64,000 bases of DNA from Elusimicrobiota bacterium. Its GTDB lineage: Bacteria > RUG730 > JBDRED01. The stretch lies in NCBI GenBank assembly GCA_043820025.1, contig JBDRED010000034.1, positions 10,253 through 74,252 on the forward strand. The letters run 5' to 3'. Below are positions 3,001 to 56,849 of this stretch, one piece after another. The notes under the pieces were generated by a model. The model searched no databases and was not told the DNA's origin. It saw only the letters and a list, made by a program, of their open reading frames with translations. Positions within the stretch are counted from its first letter, which is position 1. Every line of letters starts with the position of its first letter. The position numbers were made by a program, and so were the translations under genes.

Positions 3001-3364
3001 TATAGTTACTGTGGAAATCAATCATTTCTCTGTTTATTCGCTGATAGGCCAGGCAAAATATGCGGATAATTTAAGCGGTGTTATAGCTTATCCAAATCCG
3101 TATAAGCCGGGATCAGGCACTAAGTTTGACAGACAGGGCGGCGTAATGTTTACTAACCTGACTGAACAGGTAAAGGTACGAATATTTACAATTGCCGGCA
3201 ATTTGGTATTTGAAGGAGATGAGCTCGACGGAGACGGCGACTTTGAATGGAATATTACAAATGATTATGGAGAGAGAGTTGCAAGCGGCGTATACATTTA
3301 TTTAATAACAAATCCGAATAATGGCGGAGACAAAGCGAAAGGAAAGATAGGAATAATTAAATAA
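2..3364 (+). CDS. Giant cell-surface repeat protein, 5'-truncated by the window edge (tandem Ig/FN3-like modules, two FN3 domains, T9SS/FlgD-Ig-like C-terminal sorting domain)
   Basis: The reading frame is open from base 2. The residues before the first ATG at 77 (STITFDWSDVSDLSGVNSYEF) already match the internal repeat, so the gene starts upstream of the window. Seven ~97-aa modules share the pattern TFDWSD..D.SG...YE...ST...F ... G.YYW.VR..DNAGN.S.WS ... PP(S/T)xP. Two FN3-like domains follow (PSAPTGFTL...; NAPSGISNS...). The last ~90 aa (YPNPYKPG...VRIFTIAGNLV...ASGVYIYLI...KGKIGIIK) resemble T9SS type-A sorting domains. Confidence 0.8.
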   Translation, partial: STITFDWSDVSDLSGVNSYEFIVSTMSDLSLVLYTTNTASSYLFADNVDDGRYYWSVRVMDNVGLYSLWTTIRSVYFDATPPSAPVKLTPMQTSVTDYMTTTFSWTASLDSFSGLSHYELKVSTESSFESVYYSSATNSTSINVDLFEHAFYWNVWGVDNAGNYSVVSDTGIFYIDVTSPTVPVLTAPLTGYTTNSLTLTYDWEPASDSSAIDYYTFELSTNSFTNVYYSSNVVSGTEIQYGVTEGTYSWHVRSVDKAGLMSDYAGAETIFIDTTPPSAVSLESPYNGYVSSQTYIEINWSDAIDSFTGIKGYEFHSSTEPSMSGTDFSTTTVVSNLTGDPNEGEYYYRVRAFDNAGNYGIWSSTRMFIVDVSSPAVPVLITPLQGSVTSYTTFIFDWSDVTDISGIEAYELKASTYSDMSLLYYTATSMAGSYDEVDSDYAFDDGKYYWTVRVIDNAGWASDWAPIREFTISTSSPIAPIIISPLSGYTTNQTDITLDWSDVTSIFGLDRYEVQLSTNSDFSGTSPLTGIFTSKLDCEFSESVVYWRVRAVDNAGLVGDWTSASVITVDTTSPSVPINLSPVSSSNVPVSQVTYDWDDAVDNLSGINQYQIQLSTNTSFNPLASNFNTSTSTIKLVMDGSGTYYWHARSIDNAGNYSGWSSTNTLIVTGPPSAPTGFTLAALSTSAIKMIWNDSADNEEGYKIIDGFSVITTTTLAAGATNYTETGLTANTRYARYVQAYNVAGPASSEVLYVYTFANAPSGISNSVVRVHEADLQWTGNGGTAYAVNKSTDGGVNWHFVEKITTTTYTVKGLLPSTTYAFSISAYNGDNVITLGSSTITGVVTQPLTHTRIDPIIGATQNQAVVVNGKSLNAVVTLPPGVVDSSVYNEIYMDINIDPSGAPVYVDPSKINDADSALKKGKQQMGIMLELNMYAITGERITGNFAKAVTLTIPYLDEDNDGFVDNTNPPIKEEFLEIYLLNETSGVWEALSGVVDPAANIVTVEINHFSVYSLIGQAKYADNLSGVIAYPNPYKPGSGTKFDRQGGVMFTNLTEQVKVRIFTIAGNLVFEGDELDGDGDFEWNITNDYGERVASGVYIYLITNPNNGGDKAKGKIGIIK

Positions 3365-3433
3365 GAATACAGAAGTCAGAATACAGAAGTCAGAATACAG
3401 GAGTCAGAATACAGAAGTCAGAATACAGAAGGA
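3365..3433 (+). repeat. Tandem array of 4.9 copies of the 14-mer GAATACAGAAGTCA (about 10 heptads AGAATAC/AGAAGTC), filling the intercistronic gap
   Basis: Read directly from the sequence: units at 3365, 3379, 3393 (variant GAATACAGGAGTCA) and 3407, plus a partial unit at 3421 that runs into the Shine-Dalgarno GGAG (3431-3434) of the ATG at 3441. Confidence 0.95.
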
Positions 3434-7688: not shown

Positions 7689-7716
7689 AGAATACAGAAT
7701 ACAGAATACAGAATAT
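7689..7716 (+). repeat. Heptamer tandem repeat (AGAATAC)x3 plus AGAATAT
   Basis: Read directly from the sequence. It is the same heptad as in the 3365-3433 array and lies 30 nt upstream of the AAGGAG/ATG of the 7747 gene. Confidence 0.95.
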
Positions 7717-11034: not shown

Positions 11035-11090
11035 AACTTGTGAGACAATGATTGATACAAATAAGCGTTGTCTCCCTAAAGTTTCGGTGT

Positions 11091-12707
11091 ATGGGGGTGG
11101 TGTTGGCTCTATTTAGGAACGTTGCTCTAGTTTGTCTGATAGTAATTTTCGTTACTGCCGTAAATGACAGCTTTATAACATGTCCGCGCGAAAAAAATTC
11201 AAAACAAAATACAGAGAGAATAAATATTTCAAGAGATAGGCTTGCATTTAAAAGTTATTTTGCCTGCAGGCAGAATATAGGTGTATTAACAGAAATTATC
11301 AGGGAATATATTGATGAAATTGTTGGCGGCGTTATTGAGTATGAATCTGAATCTGACTCTGACTCTTTTTTCTCTGATTCGGAGCGCGAAACTCCTTCGG
11401 AAGGCAGTACCTGCGCGTCTGATGGTGAAATTTCACCAATGGTTTTTGATATGGACGATGTTGTTGATTGGGATGACCGGGTAGAAGAAAAGATAGAAAA
11501 AAGGAGAAAGGTTAAGAGATTATTTAACAGCTCTGATTTTTTAGAAAGCCCTCAAACAGCATGCCTGCGTCAATTAGCTGAGCATTTATACGATATGTCA
11601 AAGGAATATAATATGACACAAGAGTTTTTTGAGGTTTTTTATGAAAACGGAATTGATATAAGAAAGGGCAAGAACATTTTTATTAATCCAAAAGTGAAAA
11701 AAAATAATTATTCATACGCGGATACTTGTAATGCTAAATATGACGGCGCTAAAGAACCGGAAAGGTCTATACTTAAAAAAAGGCAGGTAAATATGAATGG
11801 CGATCAGACTGTTAGTTTGCATTTTTTAGAGGATGTAACACAATGGATGCTGTCTGATAAAAGGGTTTCACAGGACATGAGAAATTACGCTCTTATAATC
11901 GCAGAGGACATTTTGGATGATCTTAATATGGTAAAAAAAGGCAGTTTCGTTGAATTAATAACCTTATCGGGTTATAACTCGGATCAATTAATATTGCAGT
12001 CTATTGCCTTAGAAGAGATAATCCGTTCAAGATCGAGTATTGTAACTATAGTTAAAGTATTCAGGCAGATCTACCCGGAGCTTGAAAAATTATTGAATAA
12101 CGTAAATCCGCAAAATAAAATTTTAATAGAGAAAATCAAGAGGTTCCAAAATAAAATATATAATAATATTCTTCTAATACAGTCAAAACAGGTGGAGTCT
12201 AGCGGTATTTTAAATTCGCTTACCGGAGAGAATGTTGGCAGTTTGAAGATTATTGAGGAATATATCGAATGGGAGAGACCGGAATTAGTAGTGAATTATG
12301 AAGAAGTGCTGTCGTATGCGGTTAACAGAGTGTTCACTGCTCAGCTGCCTGAAAGATGGTCCGGCCCGGGAAATAATATAAAATTTAAGACAGTGTTAAG
12401 TTATTTGGAGTTAAGAGATTTGATTATGGATCAATTCTCGATTATTAAAGATAAAATCAGCAAAAGGAGAGAGAAATATCAAAGTATGTATGAGGAAAAA
12501 AACCATACCTTACCACAAGAACGCATAATTACTATTCGGGAATTGATTGATGCAAACAAGAGCGCTATAACTTATAATGAATCTGTCTTACTGCTGTTTT
12601 CTATGCTGGAAGGTTTAGCAGGTCATTACTTCCCTGTCCCTGATCCGGAAAAAGAAATAATGGCCTGTTTTGGCATGAATTATGAATCTTTGGTACATGC
12701 GTCCTAG
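11091..12707 (+). CDS. Hypothetical membrane-anchored protein with an acidic Ser/Asp/Glu-rich region; no recognisable domain
   Basis: A long ORF (11052-12707 in the track). ATG 11091 gives an N-terminal hydrophobic anchor (MGVVLALFRNVALVCLIVIFVTAV). The start is uncertain because no clear RBS is present. I recognise no family motif. Confidence 0.55.
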   Translation: MGVVLALFRNVALVCLIVIFVTAVNDSFITCPREKNSKQNTERINISRDRLAFKSYFACRQNIGVLTEIIREYIDEIVGGVIEYESESDSDSFFSDSERETPSEGSTCASDGEISPMVFDMDDVVDWDDRVEEKIEKRRKVKRLFNSSDFLESPQTACLRQLAEHLYDMSKEYNMTQEFFEVFYENGIDIRKGKNIFINPKVKKNNYSYADTCNAKYDGAKEPERSILKKRQVNMNGDQTVSLHFLEDVTQWMLSDKRVSQDMRNYALIIAEDILDDLNMVKKGSFVELITLSGYNSDQLILQSIALEEIIRSRSSIVTIVKVFRQIYPELEKLLNNVNPQNKILIEKIKRFQNKIYNNILLIQSKQVESSGILNSLTGENVGSLKIIEEYIEWERPELVVNYEEVLSYAVNRVFTAQLPERWSGPGNNIKFKTVLSYLELRDLIMDQFSIIKDKISKRREKYQSMYEEKNHTLPQERIITIRELIDANKSAITYNESVLLLFSMLEGLAGHYFPVPDPEKEIMACFGMNYESLVHAS

Positions 12708-12719
12708 TCTGAAAATAAA

Positions 12720-12758
12720 GTAACCGAACTTGAGGGACAGACCCCAAAGTTCGGTTAC
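12720..12758 (+). repeat. Hairpin element (12-bp stem GTAACCGAACTT/AAGTTCGGTTAC) whose core recurs at 51434-51461
   Basis: The inverted repeat is perfect, with a 15-nt loop containing GAGGGACAGACCCC. It sits 12 nt after the stop of the 11091 gene. No U-run follows, so it is not a canonical intrinsic terminator. Confidence 0.7.
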
Positions 12759-12778
12759 TGCTAAAAAGCACAAAATTC

Positions 12779-12831: not shown

Positions 12832-12861
12832 AGTCAATCCTAGATTGGAGGTATATGTCCT

Positions 12862-13209
12862 TTGGCTGAAAACTGCTTATTTTGTAACATAATCAGCAAA
12901 AAAATACCGGCAGAAATTGTCTTTGAAAATGAAGATGTTATAGCTTTTAAGGATATAAATCCAACAGCTCCCGTGCATGTTTTAATACTTACAAAAAAAC
13001 ATATTCCAACGATTTTGGATATTAAAGAGGAAGACAGCCGGGTGTTAAGCGCGTTGTGGGGCGCTGTAAATAAGATAGCGAAAGATATGGAAATAGATGA
13101 GTCGGGTTTTAGGGTAGTTGCGAACTGCGGCGAGGATGGCGGGCAGGAGATACTGCATCTACATCTGCACCTGTTAGGCGGAAGACAGATGACATGGCCT
13201 GCAGGATAA
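12862..13209 (+). CDS. HIT-family (histidine triad) nucleotide hydrolase
   Basis: The histidine triad HLHLHLLGG is present, and the N-terminus CLFCNIISKKIPAEIVFENEDVIAFKDINP is typical of HinT. The start is TTG, with GGAGG 10 nt upstream. Confidence 0.85.
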   Translation: MAENCLFCNIISKKIPAEIVFENEDVIAFKDINPTAPVHVLILTKKHIPTILDIKEEDSRVLSALWGAVNKIAKDMEIDESGFRVVANCGEDGGQEILHLHLHLLGGRQMTWPAG

Positions 13210-13263
13210 AAAATAGCCCAGCTAGAAGGGGTTGGGAACAATTAATAAAAAAGGGGAACAAAA

Positions 13264-21761: not shown

Positions 21762-21841
21762 GTTTGTTCTGAAAAAGTGGTAGAAATTTCTCGTTATTTT
21801 TCTTATTTTATCGTCTTTCGACCCACTTTTTCAGAACAAAC
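21762..21841 (+). promoter_or_regulatory. Leader hairpin in the mgtE 5' UTR with a 19-bp perfect stem (candidate attenuator or riboregulator)
   Basis: GTTTGTTCTGAAAAAGTGG (21762-21780) pairs perfectly with CCACTTTTTCAGAACAAAC (21823-21841). The loop is 42 nt. The U-rich stretch TATAATATTTTT follows the stem. Confidence 0.5.
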
Positions 21842-21889
21842 TATAATATTTTTCGCAGTCATTATGAGATGCGAATACAGGTGAATAAT

Positions 21890-23275
21890 ATGAAAAGAAT
21901 TAATGTTCTCGCGCTATTTCTTCCGGAGATAAAAGAGCTTCTTAGAGAACGAAGTTTTGCTCAAATAAAACAAGTTTTGTCAGGCATGCATTCGATGGAT
22001 CTTGCAGAAGGTTTTCATAATTTTGCTGATAATGAAAAAATTATAATTTTTAGGTTATTGGGTCAAAATAAAGCAATTGAGGTTTTTGAGAGCGTTCAGC
22101 CGGAAGATCAGAAATTTCTTTTAAATAATCTTGCAAGCGCTGAGATATCGCAGATATTGAACGAGATGTCGTCTGACGAGCGCGTTGACCTTTTTCATGA
22201 ATTATCTCCCAAAGTAGTAAAAAAGTTTTTTAGTCTTATGAGAAAGGAAGAGGTTGATGATGTAAAGTCGCTTATTACGTATCCGGAGGGCACAGCAGGC
22301 AGTATTATGACAACTGACGCGGTATGCCTTAGGCCTGATATGAGCGCGCGAGCGGCTCTTTTAAAGCTCCAGGAAGAACTCAAAACAGGCGAATCTGAAC
22401 ATATTTACGCCAGCTATGTGCTGGATAGTGATAGAAAACTAATAGGCGCTGTTGATTTGCAGGATATTATTGTTTCATCGCCGCATGCGCCTGTCAAAGA
22501 AATTATGACAAGTATAGAAACAATAAAGGTTACTGACGATTCTGACGCTAAGGAAGTAGGCGCGTTATTCGTAAAATACGATCTTTTAAGCGTTCCTGTT
22601 GTTAATGAAAAAAAACAGTTTGTAGGTATGATTGTGTTCGATGATATCGTTGATTCGATTCAGCATGAGAATACAAAGGAAATGTATGAGTTAGGAAAGA
22701 TGCATGTTGAGGAAGGCGCGGAAATCCGTTATTCTCATACAAATAGTTTTGATTTATTAAAACGCAGGGCAGGCTGGCTCATGTTTTTGCTCGTGTTCGA
22801 TTTTTTAACAGGAACTGTTCTTAAATCATATGAGCATGCGTTAAGCAGTGTTGTCGCTCTTTCGTTTTTTATTCCTATGTTATTAGATACCGGCGGTAAT
22901 GCAGGAGCTCAGGTTTCTGTCACAATAATACGCGGATTAGCAATAGGCGATGTAGGAATGCATAATGTTTGGGATATTATAAAAAAGGAATCAATAGCCG
23001 CATTTTTTATGAGTTTATTTGTAGGGCTTGTCGCGTTTTTAAGAGCGTATTTATTACAGGGCAGCGCGCTTGTTGCTTTAGTAGTGGGCGCTACTATGAG
23101 CGTTATTGTTTTATTAGCTGTTTCTACGGGAATCTTTCTTCCGCTTGCTTCAAAAAAAATCGGCCTTGATCCTGCTGTTCTAGCCGGCCCTATAACCACA
23201 AGTATTGTTGATATTGTGGGCCTGATCATTTACTTCAATATAGCTATTAAATTAATTCCTGCATTATCACATTAG
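21890..23275 (+). CDS. mgtE: Magnesium transporter MgtE
   Basis: The protein has an MgtE N-domain, a CBS pair (GTAGSIMTTD...; LLSVPVVNEKKQFVGMI) and a C-terminal TM domain (DTGGNAGAQ...). ATG 21890 is preceded by AGGTG; the track start is ATG 21869. Confidence 0.92.
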   Translation: MKRINVLALFLPEIKELLRERSFAQIKQVLSGMHSMDLAEGFHNFADNEKIIIFRLLGQNKAIEVFESVQPEDQKFLLNNLASAEISQILNEMSSDERVDLFHELSPKVVKKFFSLMRKEEVDDVKSLITYPEGTAGSIMTTDAVCLRPDMSARAALLKLQEELKTGESEHIYASYVLDSDRKLIGAVDLQDIIVSSPHAPVKEIMTSIETIKVTDDSDAKEVGALFVKYDLLSVPVVNEKKQFVGMIVFDDIVDSIQHENTKEMYELGKMHVEEGAEIRYSHTNSFDLLKRRAGWLMFLLVFDFLTGTVLKSYEHALSSVVALSFFIPMLLDTGGNAGAQVSVTIIRGLAIGDVGMHNVWDIIKKESIAAFFMSLFVGLVAFLRAYLLQGSALVALVVGATMSVIVLLAVSTGIFLPLASKKIGLDPAVLAGPITTSIVDIVGLIIYFNIAIKLIPALSH

Positions 23276-26389: not shown

Positions 26390-26893
26390 ATGAAATCGTT
26401 TTTTAGTAAAAAAATGTTGTTAGGTTTTACTCTTATAGAATTAATGATTTCGGTTGTTTTGATGGGTATTGTAGGCCTTGCTATTACAAGTTATTTTTCA
26501 GATATTTTTAAACAATGGTTTAAGGTAAGCAATCAGATATCTTCCCAGCAGGAAGCAAGAGTAGTTATTGAAGAGATGACAAGTTTTATTAGGCAGTCTT
26601 CAAATCCTGTGGCAGGCATGTCTCCTGCGATAGGCGCTGCTTCGTCTTCAGAGATATCATTTCTTTATTCCGGAAGTCAGGGCAATAAACAAATGAAGTA
26701 TTATAAAAATGGAGACGAATTATTTAGAGTTGTTAATGGCGTAACATCTACAGTAATTCATGGGGGGCTTCAGAGCGTTTATTTTACGCATGTGTCAAGT
26801 TATGTAGTGGAAATTGGAAGCATGGTTGTGCGTTCCGGCGACGATGTATTTGAAATGAATAAGACGGTTTATTTAAGGAATAGAGAATATTAA
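26390..26893 (+). CDS. Type IV pilin-like/pseudopilin protein (prepilin N-terminal motif)
   Basis: The N-terminus MKSFFSKKMLLG|FTLIELMISVVLMGIVGLAI is a canonical GFTLIE motif with Glu at +5. Confidence 0.8.
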   Translation: MKSFFSKKMLLGFTLIELMISVVLMGIVGLAITSYFSDIFKQWFKVSNQISSQQEARVVIEEMTSFIRQSSNPVAGMSPAIGAASSSEISFLYSGSQGNKQMKYYKNGDELFRVVNGVTSTVIHGGLQSVYFTHVSSYVVEIGSMVVRSGDDVFEMNKTVYLRNREY

Positions 26894-28737: not shown

Positions 28738-30765
28738 ATGCTGACAATTACGAATTTAAAAGAGAAAGCAAAAGAATTTGGATATAGGATAGAGCTGCCT
28801 GTTTTTGAGAGAACGTCGGATGAGATTAGGGTAAATGCAGCTCATTCAATGAATGAGGCAGATAAGGAGCTGGATTCAATAGCTGCGCTTTGGGATGAGG
28901 ATTTGAGTTTTAAAAATACGATGGTAAGGCTTGATGATATTTTTTATAAGATAGGCAATGTGTATTCGAGAATTATCTTTATTATGAACACCAGTCCTTT
29001 AAAAGAACTAAGGGAAACTTGCGAAGAAATGATTTTAGAGCTTGAAAAATGGAGGATTAAAACAGAATATAGAGAGGATATATATGATAAAGTGAGTAAG
29101 TGTTCCGTAAAGATAAATAATTTGCATGGCGAAGATATCAGGCTGTATGATCATATTTTGGAACGGTATAAACGGCTTGGTTTTGGACTAGGAAAAGAAT
29201 CAAAGGATGAGATAAAAAAAATTAAACAAGAACTTTCCGCGCTTGAGACAAGTTTTGCGGCAAATATTCGCGAGGATACTATAAAAATCAAATTCTCTTC
29301 TGAAGAACTGAGCGGAGTGCCTGAGGATATGCTGAGCGAATTTACGCGTGATGATTCCGGCGAATATATCATTAATCCAAAATCAGCATCCATTGTGACA
29401 AAGATAATGCAGAACGCTAAGCCGGAAGAAACCAGAAAAAAGATTTATACAGCGCGGCTTAATGTGGCAAAGGATAAGAATATTGAAGTCCTGGATAATG
29501 CTGTGCGGCTAAGAGCGCGCTTGGCTAAACTATTGAAATATGAGTCATGGGCAGACTATAAATTAGATATAACAATGGCTAAAAAAAAGGAGACTGTTGA
29601 AAAGTTTATCTTTGGCTTGCGCGACAAATTAGATAATAAATTTAGAGATGAATTAAGCGTATTTGAAAATATGAAAAAAAATGACACCAAAGATGACAGT
29701 TCTAAAATATGCTCTTGGGACATAGCGTATTATGTTAATAAGCTCGTTAAGGAACGTTACAATATTGACCTTAACGAACTTCGCAAATATTTTGAGTATG
29801 ACAGAACGCTTAATGGTATGTTTAAAATTTTTGAAAAGGTGTTTGGGATAAAGATAAATGAGGTTGAGTGCAGTTATAAATGGGCGCAAGACATAAAATT
29901 ATACGCAATCTTGGATGGAATAAAGGATGAACCGCTTGGCCTGTTTTATCTGGATATGTTCCCTCGTGATGGGAAGTTTAATCATTTTGCCGAGTTTGGT
30001 TTATTTGGCGCAAAAAAAATCGGAGATAATATTTATCAAAGGCCTGTCGCGGCGCTCGTCTGTAATTTTGACAGGCCCGGCGCAGATACTCCGTCATTAC
30101 TAACGTACAGCCAGGTTGACACATTGTTTCATGAATTTGGGCATGTTCTGCACTCACTATTAACAAAAGCGAAGTATATAGAGCATTCCGGCACTAATGT
30201 TCCGATTGATTTTGTCGAGGTGCCTTCGCAGGTTCTGGAATACTGGATAGAGGACAAAGATATAATTAACAGCTTTGCTGTTGATTATAGAGATAAAACT
30301 AAAAAAATACCTGACAGCTTTTTGGACGCTATGAAGGAAATAAAAAAAATAAACATTGCTGCGCATTACAGAGCTCAAATGGCGTACAGTCTTATTGACA
30401 TAAATCTGCATTCAAAGCTGGATGAGAATCATAAAGAAGATCTAGTCAGATACACTAATAATATTTTAGAAAAAACATATATGGCATTACCGCTTGATAC
30501 GGCTTTTATCGCCGGGTTTGGGCATTTGATGGGCTATGACTCAGGGTATTACGGTTACGCTTGGGCTGATGTTATATCAGCGGATATAGCATTGCAGTTT
30601 AGCTCGAGTAAGCTTGGTTTTTTTAATAATAAATTAGGTATTAAGTTTAGAAAAGAAATTCTTGAACAAGGCGATGGCAGGCCTGTTGAAGAATCTTTGA
30701 GAGCGTTTTTAGGCAGAGAATACTCAATAGACTCATTTTTTAAAAAATGCGGGATAAGGGAGTGA
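28738..30765 (+). CDS. M3-family zinc metallo-oligopeptidase (thimet oligopeptidase/oligopeptidase A-like)
   Basis: The HEXXH zinc motif lies in TLFHEFGHVLHSLL, with a downstream EVPSQ, and the length is typical of M3. Confidence 0.88.
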   Translation: MLTITNLKEKAKEFGYRIELPVFERTSDEIRVNAAHSMNEADKELDSIAALWDEDLSFKNTMVRLDDIFYKIGNVYSRIIFIMNTSPLKELRETCEEMILELEKWRIKTEYREDIYDKVSKCSVKINNLHGEDIRLYDHILERYKRLGFGLGKESKDEIKKIKQELSALETSFAANIREDTIKIKFSSEELSGVPEDMLSEFTRDDSGEYIINPKSASIVTKIMQNAKPEETRKKIYTARLNVAKDKNIEVLDNAVRLRARLAKLLKYESWADYKLDITMAKKKETVEKFIFGLRDKLDNKFRDELSVFENMKKNDTKDDSSKICSWDIAYYVNKLVKERYNIDLNELRKYFEYDRTLNGMFKIFEKVFGIKINEVECSYKWAQDIKLYAILDGIKDEPLGLFYLDMFPRDGKFNHFAEFGLFGAKKIGDNIYQRPVAALVCNFDRPGADTPSLLTYSQVDTLFHEFGHVLHSLLTKAKYIEHSGTNVPIDFVEVPSQVLEYWIEDKDIINSFAVDYRDKTKKIPDSFLDAMKEIKKINIAAHYRAQMAYSLIDINLHSKLDENHKEDLVRYTNNILEKTYMALPLDTAFIAGFGHLMGYDSGYYGYAWADVISADIALQFSSSKLGFFNNKLGIKFRKEILEQGDGRPVEESLRAFLGREYSIDSFFKKCGIRE

Positions 30766-30770
30766 GTAGT

Positions 30771-31676
30771 ATGAAAAAAAATATTTTAGTATTTACTTTA
30801 ATATTTTTAAGCGGCTGCGGTCTTAAAAATTATCAGAAATCCACATTTTTAGGAGCTGCTGCAGGAGCTGCTGCATCAGCTGTAATAGTTAATGATTCAA
30901 AGAGGGTGGTTGAGGGCGCAGTAATAGGCGCTATGACAGGCGCTTTGATTGGCAGGGGAATAGCGTGTTTACTATTTAATTGCGGGGATGAGATAGAAAG
31001 ATTAAAACGTGAAGCGTATGAGCGAAGGCTTGCTGAAGAGCAGAGGCTTGCTGAAGAGCAGAGGCTTGCCGAAGAGCAGAGACTTGCAGAAGAACAGAGG
31101 CTTGCAGAAGAACAGAGGCTTGCCGAAGAGCAGAGACTTGCAGAAGAACAGAGGCTTGCCGAAGAGCAGAGGCTTGCTGAAGAGCAGAGGCTTGCCGAAG
31201 AGCAGAGGCTTACTGAAGAGCAGAGGCTTACTGAAGAGCAGAGGCTTGCCGAAGAGCAGAGACTTGCTGAATTGAAAAAAAGAGAGGAAATGCAAAGGGC
31301 TGCAGAGGAAATGTTGAAAGCTGATAATGACGCAAAGCTTGTTCTTGAAGGAATAAATTTTGAGTCAGACAGCGCAATATTAAGCGAGGATTCCGAGAAA
31401 ACGCTTGATGATGTTGCCGGCGTTGTGGTAAATGATAAGACAGGAGTTATTATTGAAATCACGGCGCATACAGATAGTATAGGCTCAGAGGAATATAATC
31501 TAAATCTTTCCCAGAAAAGAGCTGATTCGGTTATGAAATATTTAATGTCAAAGGGAGTAAATCAAGATAAGCTCAAAGCTAAGGGTATGGGAGAGAGCAG
31601 TCCGTCAGTTTTAAATGACACAGAGGAAGGCCGCGCTAAAAACCGCAGAATCGAGTTTAAGGTAATAAAGAATTAA
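30771..31676 (+). CDS. OmpA-domain lipoprotein with a glycine-zipper segment and a (RLAEEQ)n coiled-coil repeat spacer
   Basis: The lipobox is LIFLSGCG and the Gly-zipper is GAAAGAAASAV...GAVIGAMTGALIGRG. About 13.8 hexapeptide repeats follow. The C-terminal OmpA-like domain reads LEGINFESDSAIL...HTDSIGSEEYNLNLSQKRA...NRRIEFKV. ATG 30771 is preceded by AAGGGAG. Confidence 0.88.
   Translation: MKKNILVFTLIFLSGCGLKNYQKSTFLGAAAGAAASAVIVNDSKRVVEGAVIGAMTGALIGRGIACLLFNCGDEIERLKREAYERRLAEEQRLAEEQRLAEEQRLAEEQRLAEEQRLAEEQRLAEEQRLAEEQRLAEEQRLAEEQRLTEEQRLTEEQRLAEEQRLAELKKREEMQRAAEEMLKADNDAKLVLEGINFESDSAILSEDSEKTLDDVAGVVVNDKTGVIIEITAHTDSIGSEEYNLNLSQKRADSVMKYLMSKGVNQDKLKAKGMGESSPSVLNDTEEGRAKNRRIEFKVIKN
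31026..31274 (+). repeat. 18-bp in-frame tandem repeat, about 13.8 copies (AGGCTTGCTGAAGAGCAG and synonymous variants)
   Basis: Read directly from the sequence. It encodes RLAEEQ x10, RLTEEQ x2, RLAEEQ x1 and a partial RLAEL. The units differ mostly at synonymous positions. Confidence 0.95.
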
Positions 31677-36686: not shown

Positions 36687-36735
36687 ATGGCAGCTCTTAA
36701 ACTAAATAAATTGTTGAGCTGCCATTTCTTTTTTT
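36687..36735 (+). terminator. Rho-independent terminator after rpmE
   Basis: A 10-bp stem ATGGCAGCTC/GAGCTGCCAT encloses a 19-nt loop and is followed by TTCTTTTTTT. Confidence 0.65.
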
Positions 36736-36747
36736 ATGGGGAGATAT

Positions 36748-52074: not shown

Positions 52075-52947
52075 ATGGCAAGAAAAAAGAAGAGTTTAGA
52101 GCAAAATTGCAATCCAAAAAAGGCGTATGAAAATACTGACTTTCTCGAGCGTCCTGAAGCGCGGCTTGTAAGAATAATGAGTGAATTTATTGAGCCGCGT
52201 GTTAGATTGGAAAGGAGCGGAGTAAAGGATGTTGTTGTGTTTTTTGGCTCAGCGCGTATGAAATCAAAAACACAGGCTGACAAGGACTTAAGAGAAATAA
52301 AGAAAAAAATTAATTGTTCAGGCATGCCCTCATTAAGTATGCGCAATAAATTGGCAAAGGCAATGCAGGCAAAGGAGTTGTCTAAGTATTATGAAGACGC
52401 TGTATTGTTCGCGAAAAAATTAACTAATTGGGCAAAGACAATATCAAATGACGGTAAAAGATTTGTTGTTTGTTCCGGCGGCGGGCCCGGTATTATGGAA
52501 GCAGTAAATAAAGGAGCTCTTCAGGCCGGAGGAAAGTCGATAGGCCTTAATATTGGATTACCATTTGAACAAAAGCCAAATGCGTATCAGAGCAAGGATT
52601 TAGGATTTATTTTTAATTATTTTTTTATTAGGAAATTCTGGTTTTCATATCTTGGCAGGGCATTGGTTGTTTTTCCGGGCGGTTTTGGCACATTTGATGA
52701 GTTATTTGAGATGCTGACACTTGAACAGACACGCAGGATGAAGAGAGAAATACCTATGATATTAATTGGATCCGAATTTTGGAATAACATAGTAAATTTT
52801 GATATGCTTGTAAAATGGGGGTTTATAAATCCGGAGGACAAAAAGCTATTTGTGGTATTTGACGATATTGACGACGCGTTTAATTATTTAAAAAATAAAC
52901 TTACCGATTCTCCGGACAGGAAGCATAAGGACGTGTTAGCGTATTAG
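52075..52947 (+). CDS. LOG-family (TIGR00730) nucleotide 5'-monophosphate nucleosidase-like protein
   Basis: The LOG signature is present: VVCSGGGPGIMEAVNKGA and VVFPGGFGTFDELFE (the PGGxGTxxE motif). Confidence 0.85.
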   Translation: MARKKKSLEQNCNPKKAYENTDFLERPEARLVRIMSEFIEPRVRLERSGVKDVVVFFGSARMKSKTQADKDLREIKKKINCSGMPSLSMRNKLAKAMQAKELSKYYEDAVLFAKKLTNWAKTISNDGKRFVVCSGGGPGIMEAVNKGALQAGGKSIGLNIGLPFEQKPNAYQSKDLGFIFNYFFIRKFWFSYLGRALVVFPGGFGTFDELFEMLTLEQTRRMKREIPMILIGSEFWNNIVNFDMLVKWGFINPEDKKLFVVFDDIDDAFNYLKNKLTDSPDRKHKDVLAY

Positions 52948-54458: not shown

Positions 54459-55172
54459 TTAGTCTTCAATGAATTTGTAACCTACTGTTGGGATTGTGCG
54501 TATGCGGCGGCCTTCTGTGCTAAGTTTCTTCCTCAGGTTTGCTACATGGCGGTCAATTGTTTTACTTGTAGTGGAATATTCATGGTCCCATATTGTTTCA
54601 GATAAGAAAACTCTATTTAAAACCTTGTTTTTCTTTTTTATTAATAAGTATAAAAGCGCGAATTCTTTAGGCGTTAGGGTTAATTTTTTTAAACCAATAT
54701 ATGCTAAATGTGTTGTCATGTTAAGAATAATATTTCCGGACCGCACTATTTCTTCTTCTTCATGTTCGACCTGAGATGCTTGGGAAAAATGTCTTAAAGC
54801 AACTTTTGTGCGCGCAAGAAATATTTTCGGGTCTATTGGTTTGTGAAGATAATCGTCTGCGCCAAGATCGAGCGCTCGAATTTCATCGTCGTCATTCTTT
54901 TTATTGTAATCGCCCAGCATTATTAGCGGTATATAACGCGTTGGTTCATTTTTTTTAAGTATACCCATAACTTCCCAGCCGCTTAAATCAGGAAGTTGTT
55001 TATTCAGCACAATAAGCGATGGATTTTCCTTCCATGCTAATTCCAGGCCTGTGTCGCCTCTATTGCTTGTAAGCACAGTTATTTCATCATTATGGTCCGA
55101 AAAAAACTTTTGCATATGCTCAGCTGTATCTTTATCATGGTCAACAATTAGAATCTTATGTTTCATTATCAC
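54459..55172 (-). CDS. OmpR/PhoB-family winged-helix response regulator with a non-canonical receiver domain (Asn at the phospho-acceptor position)
   Basis: The receiver domain reads KILIVDHDKD...PSLIVLNKQLPDLSG...IPLIMLGD...GADDYLHKP. The winged-helix domain reads LTPKEFALLYLL...TIDRHVANLRKKL...TVGYKFI. No histidine kinase lies nearby. Confidence 0.85.
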   Translation of the reverse strand: MIMKHKILIVDHDKDTAEHMQKFFSDHNDEITVLTSNRGDTGLELAWKENPSLIVLNKQLPDLSGWEVMGILKKNEPTRYIPLIMLGDYNKKNDDDEIRALDLGADDYLHKPIDPKIFLARTKVALRHFSQASQVEHEEEEIVRSGNIILNMTTHLAYIGLKKLTLTPKEFALLYLLIKKKNKVLNRVFLSETIWDHEYSTTSKTIDRHVANLRKKLSTEGRRIRTIPTVGYKFIED

Positions 55173-55259
55173 TTCCTTTCTGTCTAAATATATGTTTAGG
55201 ATTTATTTTATTATGCTATTTTAGGACTATTAAGTCAAGACAGAAATTGACAGACAGGT

Positions 55260-55387
55260 GGGAATGCTGCAATACATGTGACACCTCCTGTAAAATTGTT
55301 AACATTATACTTAAACTAAAAAGTAATATTATCTCTACCCAGTTTGGCTGTATTTAACGGGGATGTCACATGTATTGCAGTATTCCC
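55260..55387 (+). other. 128-nt element bounded by 29-nt near-perfect inverted repeats (candidate structured RNA or MITE-like element)
   Basis: GGGAATGCTGCAATACATGTGACACCTCC (55260-55288) is nearly complementary to GGGGATGTCACATGTATTGCAGTATTCCC (55359-55387). There are 26 Watson-Crick pairs, 2 positions that are G-U only if transcribed from the + strand, and 1 mismatch. The loop is 70 nt and AT-rich. Confidence 0.6.
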
Positions 55388-55641
55388 ATTATTAATAAAA
55401 AATGGAGCGCTCCGCAATGTTGCGATTATATTTAATCGACCATTGTTTTCGAGAGCGCCCCTATATTTTTGGCAGACTAACTATTTTTCTGCCGAGTTCG
55501 TTTCGCATGCGTGTCTACTATCAATAAACCATACAATAGCGTATTGTCAATAGGAAAAAAATATTTTTTAACATTAATTTTTTTAGTGTAGGATGTAAGC
55601 TCATTAAAAATAAAAATCATAGGATTTATTTTGCGTGATTA

Positions 55642-55650
55642 TGCTATAAT
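55642..55650 (+). promoter_or_regulatory. Extended -10 promoter element (TGcTATAAT) for rtcB
   Basis: TG lies at 55642-55643 and TATAAT at 55645-55650, 24 nt upstream of ATG 55674. No good -35 element is present. Confidence 0.45.
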
Positions 55651-55673
55651 AGCATATGTAATTGGAGTGTATT

Positions 55674-56849
55674 ATGATAACAGTGTTTAATAAGGACAAA
55701 AATAGGATTCCTATAAAAATGTGGCTTTCAAGTCCGGATGATCTTGAGCAGGAATGCATGAAACAGGTAAATAATCTGTCGAATCTTGCTTTCGCGTTTA
55801 AACATATAGCAATATTGCCGGATGCGCATACAGGTTATGGTATGCCTATTGGAGGTGTTTTGGCTGCAAAGGGCGTTATTATACCAAATGCGGTTGGCGT
55901 TGATATAGGCTGCGGTATGATAGCAGTTAAAACGAGTTTAAATTCAGCGGATTATGAAACTTTAAAAAAAATTTTGCGCGCTATTCGTATGGTAGTGCCA
56001 TTAGGCTTTGAACACCATAAAAAAGCTCAGGATAATAAATGGATGCCGCTCAAAAACGGTGATTATTATCCTATTATTGACCGGGAGTTTTTATCGGCAA
56101 AACATCAGGTAGGCACTCTTGGAGGCGGGAATCATTTTTTAGAATTACAAAAGGGAAATGATGGATTTATTTGGTTTATGATACACAGCGGGAGCAGGAA
56201 TTTAGGCAAAAAGGTTGCGGATTATCATAATCAAAAGGCAAAAATTACGAATGAAAAAAAGGGTTTCCCTGTGCCCAAGGAGTTTGATCTGGCTCCATTA
56301 TATGTTGATACACAGGAATCTGAAACATATATTGATGAAATGCGGTTTTGCCTTGATTTCGCAGCGTCTAACAGAAAACTGATGGCAGAAAGATTAAAAG
56401 AAATTATTGGGAATGAAACGAGCGCGAGTTTTGCGGGTGAGGTTCATATTCATCATAATTACGCCGCTTTTGAAAGACATTTTGGGGAAGATGTTGTTGT
56501 TCATAGAAAGGGCGCAACATCCGCTAAATTAGGCGAGCTTGGAATTATTCCAGGTTCACAGGGAGCCAAGAGTTATATTGTGCGAGGTAAAGGCAATGTT
56601 GAGAGTTTTATGTCATGCTCTCACGGCGCCGGACGCAGGATGGGTAGAAAACAGGCTCAGCGCGCTTTGGATCTTGAGGATGAGAAAAGAAAATTAGACG
56701 AAAAAGGCATAATACATTCAATACGCACTGTTCGTGATTTGGATGAATCTGCCAGCGCGTATAAAGATATTAATGTTGTTATGTCAAACCAAAAAGATTT
56801 AGTTGATATACTTGTAGAATTATCGCCTTTAGCAGTTGTAAAAGGGTAA
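55674..56849 (+). CDS. rtcB: RNA 3'-phosphate/5'-OH ligase RtcB
   Basis: LPDAHTGYGMPIGGV, DIGCGM, GGGNHFLE, SGSRNLG, the catalytic His in SCSHGAGR, and AYKDI are present. ATG 55674 is preceded by GGAG. Confidence 0.93.
   Translation: MITVFNKDKNRIPIKMWLSSPDDLEQECMKQVNNLSNLAFAFKHIAILPDAHTGYGMPIGGVLAAKGVIIPNAVGVDIGCGMIAVKTSLNSADYETLKKILRAIRMVVPLGFEHHKKAQDNKWMPLKNGDYYPIIDREFLSAKHQVGTLGGGNHFLELQKGNDGFIWFMIHSGSRNLGKKVADYHNQKAKITNEKKGFPVPKEFDLAPLYVDTQESETYIDEMRFCLDFAASNRKLMAERLKEIIGNETSASFAGEVHIHHNYAAFERHFGEDVVVHRKGATSAKLGELGIIPGSQGAKSYIVRGKGNVESFMSCSHGAGRRMGRKQAQRALDLEDEKRKLDEKGIIHSIRTVRDLDESASAYKDINVVMSNQKDLVDILVELSPLAVVKG

What the first reader, a model, noticed from the sequence alone, without database searches (positions are those of the whole stretch)
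55173..55673. 500-bp intergenic region upstream of rtcB with a 128-nt element bounded by 29-nt inverted repeats plus two more hairpins: candidate structured RNA
This is the longest non-coding stretch in the window. GGGAATGCTGCAATACATGTGACACCTCC (55260-55288) pairs with GGGGATGTCACATGTATTGCAGTATTCCC (55359-55387). Of the three non-Watson-Crick positions, two are G-U pairs only in a + strand transcript and would be C-A on the other strand, which hints at an RNA read in the rtcB direction. Downstream follow GGAGCGCTC...GAGCGCCCC (55404-55461, 8 of 9 pairs, then TATATTTTT) and GGCAGA-N11-TCTGCC (55471-55493). In Salmonella, Y-RNA-like genes (yrlA/yrlB) lie next to rtcB, so an RNA substrate, decoy or regulator encoded beside the ligase is a plausible precedent. 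However, no Ro/Rsr gene is here and I see no tRNA-like module. Alternatives are a MITE (29-nt terminal inverted repeats, though I could find no target-site duplication) or an operator region for the atypical regulator. The 69-aa ORF in the track (55344-55553, TTG start, no RBS) is probably not coding.
Basis: partly seen in the sequence, partly recalled or inferred. Interest (0 to 1): 0.65.

Follow-up and report, generated by a model that had tools for sequence, protein, structure and literature searches.

The report
Orphan long hairpin upstream of rtcB
The 500 bases in front of the RNA-ligase gene rtcB really do hold a 130-base near-perfect hairpin followed by a terminator-like hairpin. It is a one-off with no relatives, no known RNA family and no demonstrable link to rtcB, so it is a modest lead and not a discovery.

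Summary
Arms 55260-55288 and 55359-55387 pair with 26 Watson-Crick pairs, 2 G-U and 1 C-A, and extend to 36 nt. A second hairpin (55404-55461) and a third (55471-55493) follow. The block folds far better than shuffles (z about -9), the rest of the spacer does not, and nothing in it looks coding.

The strand hint fails. Hairpin 1 slightly favours the + strand, hairpin 2 favours the - strand, and total energies are equal. No Rfam family matches. The Y-RNA/YrlA features tested are absent: no Ro/Rsr gene, no tRNA-like module, no GNCGAA motif.

The MITE test is negative but weak: one copy in 64 kb, no target-site duplication, no transposase in the window, and no copies in any public collection. The host lineage has no close relative anywhere (RtcB at most 65%, regulator 60%, NusG 54% identical), so covariation cannot be tested. 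The closest rtcB homologues have unstructured upstream regions.

My best guess, at about 0.35, is a lineage-specific non-coding transcription unit. It would run from an extended -10-like promoter copy through the long hairpin to a bidirectional terminator. A mobile-element remnant is the main rival. Interest is low to moderate.

The parts
55259..55388 (.). Hairpin 1: a 130-nt near-perfect foldback. The core arms are 55260-55288 and 55359-55387. The extended arms are 36 nt, around a 58-nt AU-rich loop.
   Evidence: It folds at -55.8 kcal/mol (z -8.9) on the + strand and -52.4 kcal/mol (z -7.2) on the - strand.
55404..55461 (.). Hairpin 2: an extended G+C-capped stem-loop. A6 (55397-55402) lies upstream and TATATTTTT (55462-55470) downstream, which makes it look like a bidirectional intrinsic terminator.
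   Evidence: On the + strand it folds at -23.5 kcal/mol (z -3.9), followed by UAUAUUUUU. On the - strand it folds at -28.0 kcal/mol (z -5.6), followed by A then U6. A comparable stem plus T-run terminator follows the L31 gene at about 36690-36740.
55471..55493 (.). Hairpin 3: GGCAGA-N11-TCTGCC.
   Evidence: -10.3 kcal/mol, z -3.7. No U-run follows it on either strand.
55197..55224 (+). Direct-repeat copy 1, TAGGATTTATTTT-ATTATGCTATTTTAG. It contains an extended -10-like TGcTATTTT (55214-55222) that points towards hairpin 1.
   Evidence: families D3 and D4. The local alignment of 55186-55233 with 55608-55661 scores 21 against 14.6 +/- 2.3 in shuffles, and 10 of 500 shuffles reach it. TATGCTATAAA also sits 35 nt upstream of the gene that starts at 26390.
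55620..55652 (+). Direct-repeat copy 2, TAGGATTTATTTTgcgtgATTATGCTATAATAG. It carries the likely rtcB promoter, an extended -10 TGcTATAAT at 55642-55650.
   Evidence: TGCTATAAT occurs only once in the window.
55640..55656 (.). A 17-bp perfect palindrome, TATGCTAT-A-ATAGCATA, lying over the rtcB -10 element. It could be an operator. It also gives a -10-like TGcTATTAT on the - strand.
   Evidence: There are 13 palindromes of this grade in 64 kb, so this one is only suggestive.
55210..55238 (-). Predicted promoter of the regulator gene, TTGACT-17-CATAAT. It overlaps direct-repeat copy 1.
   Evidence: 10 of 12 matches.
55239..55258 (.). Direct repeat GACAGAAATT/GACAGACAGG with a 10-bp period, lying between the regulator's -35 element and hairpin 1. 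It is a Pho-box-like candidate site for the OmpR/PhoB-family regulator.
   Evidence: Read directly from the sequence. Not tested statistically.
55282..55289 (-). AGGAGGTG, a perfect Shine-Dalgarno sequence on the - strand. It lies 6 nt before ATG 55277-55275, which opens a 15-aa ORF ending at 55230. The same bases read on the + strand are CACCUCCU, which matches the 16S rRNA 3' anti-SD sequence.
   Evidence: This is the only AGGAGGTG on either strand of the window. The identity to the 16S 3' end rests on general knowledge, because the window holds no rRNA gene.
54459..55172 (-). Orphan OmpR-type response regulator. Its likely start is ATG 55166. The phospho-acceptor Asp is replaced by Asn.
55674..56849 (+). 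rtcB, 391 aa.
   Evidence: (PF01139, E 5e-105).

Best explanation
The structured block 55259-55493 is a lineage-specific, non-coding transcription unit sitting between two divergent promoters. It is not a member of any described RNA family.

**Proposed mechanism**
- A + strand transcript starts about 55229. Its promoter is an extended -10-like element (TATGCTATTTT, 55212-55222) that is a diverged copy of the rtcB promoter.
- The transcript runs through the 130-nt hairpin and ends at hairpin 2 and its U-run, about 55470. That gives an RNA of roughly 240 nt, dominated by a 29-36-bp double-stranded stem of the kind RNase III cuts.
- Hairpin 2 is flanked by A6 and T5 runs, so it can also stop - strand transcripts coming from the symmetric rtcB -10 palindrome.
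- The block therefore also insulates the regulator gene and rtcB from each other's divergent transcription.

**Shown:** the structures, their statistical excess, the absence of coding signals, and the promoter-like and terminator-like sequences.

**Inferred:** that any of it is transcribed, on which strand, and that the hairpin acts as RNA. A functional link to RtcB is not shown.
For: - Three stable hairpins are packed into 235 nt with short A/U linkers, giving z about -9. The adjacent 140 nt are unstructured.
- A strong terminator-like hairpin with runs on both sides lies in a divergent spacer, where no gene needs a terminator. The organism does use stem plus T-run terminators.
- A promoter-like TATGCTAT(T/A)(T/A)T element occurs 35 nt before hairpin 1, again at the rtcB promoter, and again before the gene at 26390. 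A related RR promoter in locus L097 reads TTGACA-N17-TATATT with TGc before it.
- No ORF in the spacer has homologues or an RBS.
- The repeat ends sharply with no target-site duplication, it is single-copy in 64 kb, and the window holds no transposase. These points argue against a MITE.
Against: - There are no expression data and no relatives, so there is no conservation or covariation evidence.
- The strand signals conflict. Hairpin 1 is marginally better on +, and hairpin 2 is clearly better on -.
- The putative promoter lacks a -35 element, whereas typical promoters in this window have TTGACA. The consensus scan did not call it.
- The direct repeat is only modestly significant, with 10 of 500 shuffles reaching its score.
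- Upstream regions of the closest rtcB homologues show no comparable structure. Any function is therefore not a general property of rtcB loci.
Confidence: 0.35

Rival explanations
1. Hairpin 1 is a miniature inverted-repeat transposable element or other foldback mobile-element remnant. It would have landed in the spacer, have no function of its own, and be unrelated to hairpins 2 and 3.
For: - The architecture is typical of a MITE. It is 130 bp long, has 29-36-bp terminal inverted repeats about 90% identical, an AU-rich non-coding interior, and sharp ends.
- The only Rfam near-hits are generic long-hairpin families, WsnRNA46 (32 bits against a cut-off of 65) and rli24.
- A second long inverted repeat in the window (21762-21841) is flanked by TATAAT on both sides, which looks like a target duplication.
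- The arm start GGnnATGCTGC resembles IS1-family ends. This is from memory and was not tested.
Against: - No target-site duplication of any length from 2 to 9 bp.
- A single copy in 64 kb.
- No transposase or integrase among the ORFs of at least 70 aa that I annotated in the window.
- Zero matches to the arm in 185,579 species genomes or in JGI metagenomes. Only chance 16-mers turn up in viral contigs, and nothing in phages or plasmids. These negatives are weak, because the host lineage is absent from the collections.
- It does not explain the adjacent terminator-like hairpin.
Confidence: 0.25
2. The hairpin is a neutral quasi-palindrome. It would have arisen by template switching or inverted duplication, be tolerated in a long spacer, and have no function as either RNA or DNA.
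For: It is unique, has no relatives, and matches no family. The arms differ at 3 of 29 positions with no strand-consistent pattern.
Against: Hairpin 1 sits 16 nt from two further significant hairpins and between promoter-like elements. Such an organised arrangement is unlikely for an accident.
Confidence: 0.12
3. The element acts at the DNA level. The inverted repeats would bracket a small invertible promoter segment (a phase-variation switch), or form a cruciform or operator that controls the divergent regulator and rtcB promoters.
For: - A promoter-like GTGACA-16-TAACAT with an upstream TG starts in the left arm and ends in the loop. Flipping the loop would point it at the regulator gene.
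- Pho-box-like GACAG direct repeats abut the hairpin.
- A 17-bp palindrome covers the rtcB -10 element.
Against: - No recombinase or invertase in the window.
- A 58-70-bp invertible segment is very short.
- Promoter-like hits in the region are no more frequent than in shuffles, 6 against 4.2 +/- 2.2.
- OmpR-type regulators need only short repeats, not 29 bp of perfect complementarity.
- Candidate boxes seen next to homologous regulators (CTTCACAAAAA, L093) are absent here.
Confidence: 0.1
4. The hairpin sequesters a translation start. A perfect Shine-Dalgarno sequence (AGGAGGTG) and an ATG lie in the 3' arm on the - strand. They would control a 15-aa leader or upstream ORF ahead of the regulator gene. 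The weaker + strand twin is GGGGA-N6-ATG, opening a 21-aa ORF that ends inside hairpin 2.
For: AGGAGGTG occurs only once on the two strands of the window. It sits at ideal spacing from an ATG and is buried in the stem. The two positions at which the arms differ within this motif are what make the - strand copy a perfect SD.
Against: - The peptides are too short to test for homology and have no recognisable character.
- On the - strand a terminator lies directly upstream of the hairpin.
- The regulator has its own promoter-like site downstream of the mini-ORF.
Confidence: 0.08
5. The RNA would be a Y-RNA-like substrate, decoy or regulator that works with RtcB.
For: It is adjacent to rtcB. It has a long terminal stem. 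An 8-nt copy of the 16S 3' anti-SD sequence (CACCUCCU) with nearby ACA sites lies in the 5' arm. RtcB is reported to religate the MazF-cut 16S 3' end in E. coli (PMC5416887).
Against: - The YrlA features tested are absent, and the window holds no Rsr gene.
- Long upstream hairpins are not a feature of rtcB loci. Only 1 of 46 surveyed loci has one, and it is unrelated in sequence.
- The closest homologues' upstream regions fold no better than shuffles.
- The regulator-rtcB pairing is itself not conserved.
Confidence: 0.05

Closest known systems
Orphan intergenic small RNAs with their own promoter and Rho-independent terminator
   Same: It is non-coding. A promoter-like element lies upstream. 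The stem-loops are stable and joined by A/U-rich linkers. A terminal G+C-rich hairpin is followed by a U-run.
   Different: The main stem, 29-36 bp of near-perfect duplex, is much longer than in typical trans-acting sRNAs. No expression or conservation data exist. The terminator is better on the opposite strand.
Bacterial MITEs and foldback repeats (Correia elements, ERIC/IRU, RUP)
   Same: The size is about 130 bp. It has long terminal inverted repeats, an AU-rich interior and an intergenic location, and it forms a long hairpin when transcribed.
   Different: There is no target-site duplication. Only one copy is visible. No parent transposase and no copies were found in any collection.
YrlA/YrlB Y RNAs next to rsr-rtcBA in Salmonella (PMC4201824)
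   Same: It is a non-coding element beside rtcB, and a long stem closes the molecule.
   Different: There is no Ro60/Rsr gene, no tRNA-like T/D-arm domain, no GNCGAAN0-1G motif and no Rfam match.
Bidirectional intrinsic terminators
   Same: Hairpin 2 has an A-run on one side and a T-run on the other, so either strand reads stem plus U-run.
   Different: It lies between divergent genes, not convergent ones, so what it would terminate is unknown. The stem-loop is long, at 58 nt.
Invertible promoter switches (fimS, Bacteroides invertons)
   Same: Inverted repeats flank a short segment that carries a promoter-like site between two genes.
   Different: The flanked segment is only 58-70 bp. No recombinase lies nearby. 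Orientation heterogeneity could not be tested.

Membership tests
Y RNA / YrlA | Encoded next to a Ro60/Rsr (TROVE) gene | tested here: not met
   A Pfam scan of the ORFs of at least 70 aa in my gene map of the window found no TROVE domain.
Y RNA / YrlA | tRNA-like domain (T-arm and D-arm) and the GNCGAAN0-1G motif (PMC4201824) | tested here: not met
   ARAGORN found nothing. Neither motif occurs on either strand. No tRNA or Y-RNA family appears in Rfam at E up to 10.
Y RNA / YrlA | Long stem formed by the 5' and 3' ends, carrying the Ro-binding helix | tested here: inconclusive
   A long stem exists. No model of the Ro-binding bulged helix was available, apart from the Rfam families, which did not match.
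MITE | Terminal inverted repeats bounding a short non-coding element | tested here: met
   Arms of 29-36 nt, 86-90% complementary, in a 130-bp element.
MITE | Flanking target-site duplication | tested here: not met
   The left flank is ...ACAGACAGG(T) and the right flank is (A)TTATTAATA. No direct repeat of 2-9 bp is present.
MITE | Multiple copies in the genome | tested here: inconclusive
   One copy in the 64-kb window. There are no hits in genome, metagenome, phage or plasmid collections, and only chance 16-mer matches in viral contigs. The rest of this genome is not available.
Rho-independent terminator (hairpin 2) | G+C-rich stem immediately followed by a U-run | tested here: met
   The - strand has a stem of -28.0 kcal/mol followed by A and then U6. 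The + strand has -23.5 kcal/mol followed by UAUAUUUUU. The simple scan missed it because its loop limit is 3-8 nt.
Rho-independent terminator (hairpin 2) | Lies at the 3' end of a transcription unit | not testable with these tools
   No transcript data are available, and the flanking genes diverge.
Any Rfam family | Score at or above the family's gathering threshold | tested here: not met
   Nothing in the region reaches a gathering score. The best sub-threshold hit is WsnRNA46 at 32 bits against 65.3, and it aligns on the stem only.
Invertible promoter (inverton) | Site-specific recombinase nearby and both orientations present in the population | tested here: inconclusive
   No recombinase is found in the window. 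Orientation heterogeneity needs the raw reads.
Conserved structured RNA (generic) | Covariation-supported structure in homologous loci | not testable with these tools
   No homologous locus exists. The closest relatives are 54-65% identical at the protein level, and their spacers are unrelated.

The most novel reading that the evidence does not exclude
A + strand RNA of about 240 nt would be co-regulated with rtcB through a duplicated promoter. Its long stem would present an 8-nt copy of the 16S rRNA 3' anti-Shine-Dalgarno sequence (CACCUCCU) beside ACA sites. The RNA would act as a decoy or sensor for ribotoxins that clip the 16S 3' end, with RtcB encoded next door as the repair ligase. This would be an RtcB-partner RNA unrelated to Y RNAs.
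Probability: 0.04. Interest if true: 0.8.

Novelty: new member of a known kind. Interest (0 to 1): 0.28.

Why it matters
If the block proved to be an expressed RNA tied to RtcB, it would be a second kind of RtcB-partner RNA, found in a poorly known lineage, and unlike the Ro/Y-RNA type. As the evidence stands, its value is narrower. It is a clean single-locus example of a very stable hairpin plus a bidirectional terminator between divergent genes. It comes from an organism with no sequenced close relatives, whose regulator's nearest homologues are in Omnitrophota MAGs. It also shows that a two-versus-one G-U count is not usable evidence for the transcribed strand.

Tried and rejected
- **Rfam.** The gathering scan of the whole window and the permissive scan of the region gave nothing real.
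- **DNA pattern scans for the arm.** There were no matches in 185,579 species genomes or in JGI metagenomes. Viral contigs gave four 16-mer matches with unrelated flanks.
- **BLAST of the spacer.** Searches against phages, plasmids, the window itself and 180 fetched loci returned only short A/T-rich chance hits.
- **Orthologous loci for covariation.**
  - Exact-protein look-ups for RtcB and L11 found nothing.
  - The best RtcB homologue is 65% identical, the best regulator homologue 60% and the best NusG 54%.
  - Their neighbourhoods differ from this one.
- **A general rtcB leader structure.**
  - Only 1 of 46 surveyed upstream regions (L106) has a comparable long repeat, and it is unrelated in sequence.
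  - L001 and L180 have long upstream spacers that fold no better than shuffles.
  - Rfam finds no RNA family in the upstream spacers of 17 such loci; the only match is a tRNA gene elsewhere in L106.
- **Coding potential.** The 69-aa ORF's only hit is a repeat artefact. No small ORF has an RBS, except the - strand 15-aa case noted above.
- **tRNA/tmRNA-like modules and YrlA motifs.** None were found.
- **A sigma-54 promoter, as at E. coli rtcBA.** The GG and GC elements in TAGGATTTATTTTGC are spaced one base short, so I rejected it on reading the sequence.
- **The direct repeat as a footprint of a 423-bp insertion or tandem duplication reaching into rtcB.** The similarity stops at about 55 nt and is only modestly significant.
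- **An integron attC site.** The required boundary motifs are not at the ends of the repeat.
- **Regulator boxes inferred from homologous loci (CTTCACAAAAA).** They are absent from this spacer.

Full report
**What is there**

The spacer between an orphan OmpR-type response regulator (54459-55172, - strand) and rtcB (ATG 55674, + strand) is 501 nt.

- **Hairpin 1.** The arms 55260-55288 and 55359-55387 form 26 Watson-Crick pairs, 2 G-U pairs and one C-A mismatch on the + strand. The repeat extends to 36-nt arms, 55259-55294 and 55353-55388, around a 58-nt A/U-rich loop. It is single-copy in the window, absent from all shuffles, and the strongest inverted repeat in the 64 kb.
- **Hairpin 2.** It spans 55404-55461 and lies between an A6 run (55397-55402) and TATATTTTT (55462-55470).
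- **Hairpin 3.** It spans 55471-55493.
- **Folding.** The 251-nt block folds with z about -9 on either strand. The whole spacer gives z = -5.9. The last 140 nt before rtcB are no better than shuffles.
- **Length claim.** The spacer is effectively the longest non-coding stretch. The other large gaps in a rough gene map are the RNase P RNA gene, a tRNA gene, a 326-aa ORF that the map missed, and a spacer holding a 62-aa zinc-ribbon ORF and secE.

**Coding potential**

Twelve ORFs of at least 20 aa overlap the spacer. I read none of them as coding, because they lack ribosome-binding sites. Real genes in this window have strong ones. The 69-aa ORF was scored against 1.84 billion representative proteins. 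Its only hit is a 1,340-aa tandem-repeat protein in which many weak 34-residue matches add up. That is an artefact.

**Strand**

Hairpin 1 is slightly more stable on the + strand (-55.8 against -52.4 kcal/mol). Hairpin 2 has its own G-U pair on the - strand. There it is clearly more stable (-28.0 against -23.5 kcal/mol, z -5.6 against -3.9) and is followed directly by A then U6. For the whole block the two strands are equal (-89.6 against -88.9).

**Known families**

- Rfam gives no hit at gathering thresholds in the region.
- With permissive settings, only generic long-hairpin models appear: WsnRNA46 at 32 bits against a cut-off of 65, plant miRNA precursors, and rli24. They align on the stem alone.
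- The YrlA criteria in PMC4201824 are adjacency to Ro60/Rsr, a tRNA-like T/D-arm domain, and a GNCGAAN0-1G motif. All were tested and none is met. No TROVE domain occurs among the window's ORFs.
- The window is ordinary chromosomal core: dnaG-rpoD, RNase P RNA, mgtE, uvrB, prfA, the his genes, and secE-nusG-rplKAJL-rpoB. It holds no RtcA, archease, transposase, integrase or invertase.

**Mobile-element test**

The architecture fits a MITE, but there is no target-site duplication, only one copy, and no transposase nearby.

- A 20-base arm pattern finds nothing in one genome for each of 185,579 species, or in JGI metagenomes.
- Viral contigs give four 16-mer matches with unrelated flanks.
- Phage and plasmid BLAST give only short A/T-rich matches.

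These negatives are weak, because the host lineage itself is missing from the collections.

**Relatives**

RtcB's best homologue is 65% identical. NusG's best match among species genomes is 54%. The regulator's best is 60%. No identical L11 or RtcB exists elsewhere.

The regulator belongs to a subfamily found in Omnitrophota and Elusimicrobiota MAGs. In the two relatives with long contigs (L093, L097) it precedes a row of roughly 175-aa proteins of unknown function. In none of the five homologue contexts examined is it next to rtcB. Covariation therefore cannot be tested, and the regulator-rtcB pairing is not conserved. It recurs only in one distant locus, L153.

**Is a long upstream hairpin a property of rtcB loci?**

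It is not.

- Among 46 metagenomic rtcB loci with usable upstream DNA, only L106 has a comparable repeat (30-nt arms). It is unrelated in sequence and sits among many short same-strand ORFs, an arrangement I read as phage-like.
- The two closest homologues have long upstream spacers, 575 nt in L001 and 628 nt in L180. Both fold no better than shuffles.
- Rfam finds nothing in the upstream spacers of 17 such loci; its only match is a tRNA gene elsewhere in L106.

**Signals that suggest how it works**

- **Duplicated promoter-like element.** A direct repeat, TAGGATTTATTTT(+/-GCGTG)ATTATGCTAT, occurs at 55197-55224 and 55620-55652. The second copy carries the only TGCTATAAT in the window, 24 nt before the rtcB start, and is its likely extended -10 promoter. 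The first copy reads TGCTATTTT and points at hairpin 1. A similar TATGCTATAAA precedes the gene at 26390, and a related regulator promoter in L097 reads TTGACA-N17-TATATT with TGc. The repeat is only modestly significant, with 10 of 500 shuffles reaching its score. Both copies lack the TTGACA -35 element that other promoters here have.
- **Symmetric rtcB -10.** The rtcB -10 element lies in a 17-bp perfect palindrome, so it reads as a -10 on both strands. There are 13 such palindromes per 64 kb, so this is only suggestive.
- **Bidirectional terminator shape.** Hairpin 2 has the form of a bidirectional terminator, and a comparable terminator follows the L31 gene.

Together these fit a model with two partly symmetric promoters firing inward and a shared terminator. 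Hairpin 1 would be the body of a + strand RNA of about 240 nt. Every transcriptional step in this model is inference.

**Other readings kept open**

- A mobile-element remnant.
- A neutral quasi-palindrome.
- A DNA-level switch or operator. A promoter-like GTGACA-16-TAACAT spans the left arm and loop, and Pho-box-like GACAG repeats lie at 55239-55258.
- A hairpin that buries a translation start. The only AGGAGGTG on either strand of the window lies in the - strand 3' arm, 6 nt before an ATG.

On the + strand that same octamer is CACCUCCU, the 16S 3' anti-SD sequence. This is notable because RtcB is reported to religate the MazF-cut 16S 3' end (PMC5416887). It is a single after-the-fact coincidence.

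**Verdict**

The interpretation as a candidate structured RNA is neither established nor excluded. The Y-RNA analogy and the strand hint are not supported, and the MITE alternative is weakened but not refuted. The feature is real, orphan and currently untestable by comparison. I rate it low to moderate interest.

Noticed in passing
window 21762-21841: A second long inverted repeat, with 19-nt perfect arms and a 42-nt loop, lies in the spacer just upstream of an mgtE Mg2+ transporter gene (21869-23275). TATAAT flanks it on both sides. No M-box or other Rfam family matches there. It could be a leader regulatory hairpin or a small MITE with a target duplication.
   Followed up: partly
window 3364-3431, 7689-7715, about 21665 and about 23350: Tandem repeats sit immediately upstream of gene start sites: AGAATACAGAAGTC x4.9 and AGAATAC x3.9. 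The first array runs up to the start region of a PorV-like gene. Related AGAATTCAGAAGAC-like strings occur in other spacers. This is a recurring intergenic motif of unknown role.
   Followed up: no
window 54459-55172 (- strand): In the OmpR-type response regulator, the phospho-acceptor Asp is replaced by Asn (SLIVLNKQLP), and no histidine kinase gene lies beside it. Homologues at 45-60% identity occur in Omnitrophota and Elusimicrobiota MAGs. In the two with long contigs (L093, L097) they precede rows of roughly 175-aa proteins with no Pfam domain.
   Followed up: partly
window 55197, 55589, 55620, 55703 and 52599: Four of the 17 + strand TAGGAT hexamers in the window fall within 510 nt around the rtcB start. 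A 15-nt exact copy of TTTAGGATTTATTTT also lies inside the LOG-family gene at 52599-52613. These could be regulator sites or chance.
   Followed up: partly
window 55239-55258: A direct repeat, GACAGAAATT/GACAGACAGG, with a 10-bp period abuts the -35 element of the regulator's predicted promoter. It resembles a Pho box and is a plausible autoregulatory site.
   Followed up: no
window 55282-55289: The only AGGAGGTG on either strand of the 64 kb lies in the hairpin on the - strand, 6 nt before an ATG that opens a 15-aa ORF. On the + strand the same octamer is CACCUCCU, the 16S 3' anti-SD sequence.
   Followed up: partly
L180 1690-1790: Upstream of an rtcB 63% identical to this one, a 628-nt spacer carries three direct copies of GTCCCCGGAATTA, two of them within a longer GAATTAAGTGATGTGTCCCCGGAATTA unit. 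It is divergent from an ORF6N-domain gene. This is probably a regulator-binding array and is unrelated in sequence to the window.
   Followed up: no
L106 2655-2746: A hairpin with 30-nt arms and a 32-nt loop (GCTCCTGAGTCACTCTAGAGCCCATTTTGG...) lies 225 nt upstream of an rtcB 56% identical to this one. The locus has many small same-strand ORFs and a tRNA gene, so it looks phage-like.
   Followed up: partly
window 31026-31271: An 18-nt unit (AGGCTTGCTGAAGAGCAG) is repeated 13.7 times in frame inside an OmpA-family gene (30747-31676).
   Followed up: no
window 12719-12759: An 18-nt-arm hairpin with a 5-nt loop lies between convergent genes (11052-12707 on + and 12840-13241 on -) and has no T-run. 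CTAAAAATAGTG x2.2 follows it. This is probably a bidirectional terminator of a different style from hairpin 2.
   Followed up: no
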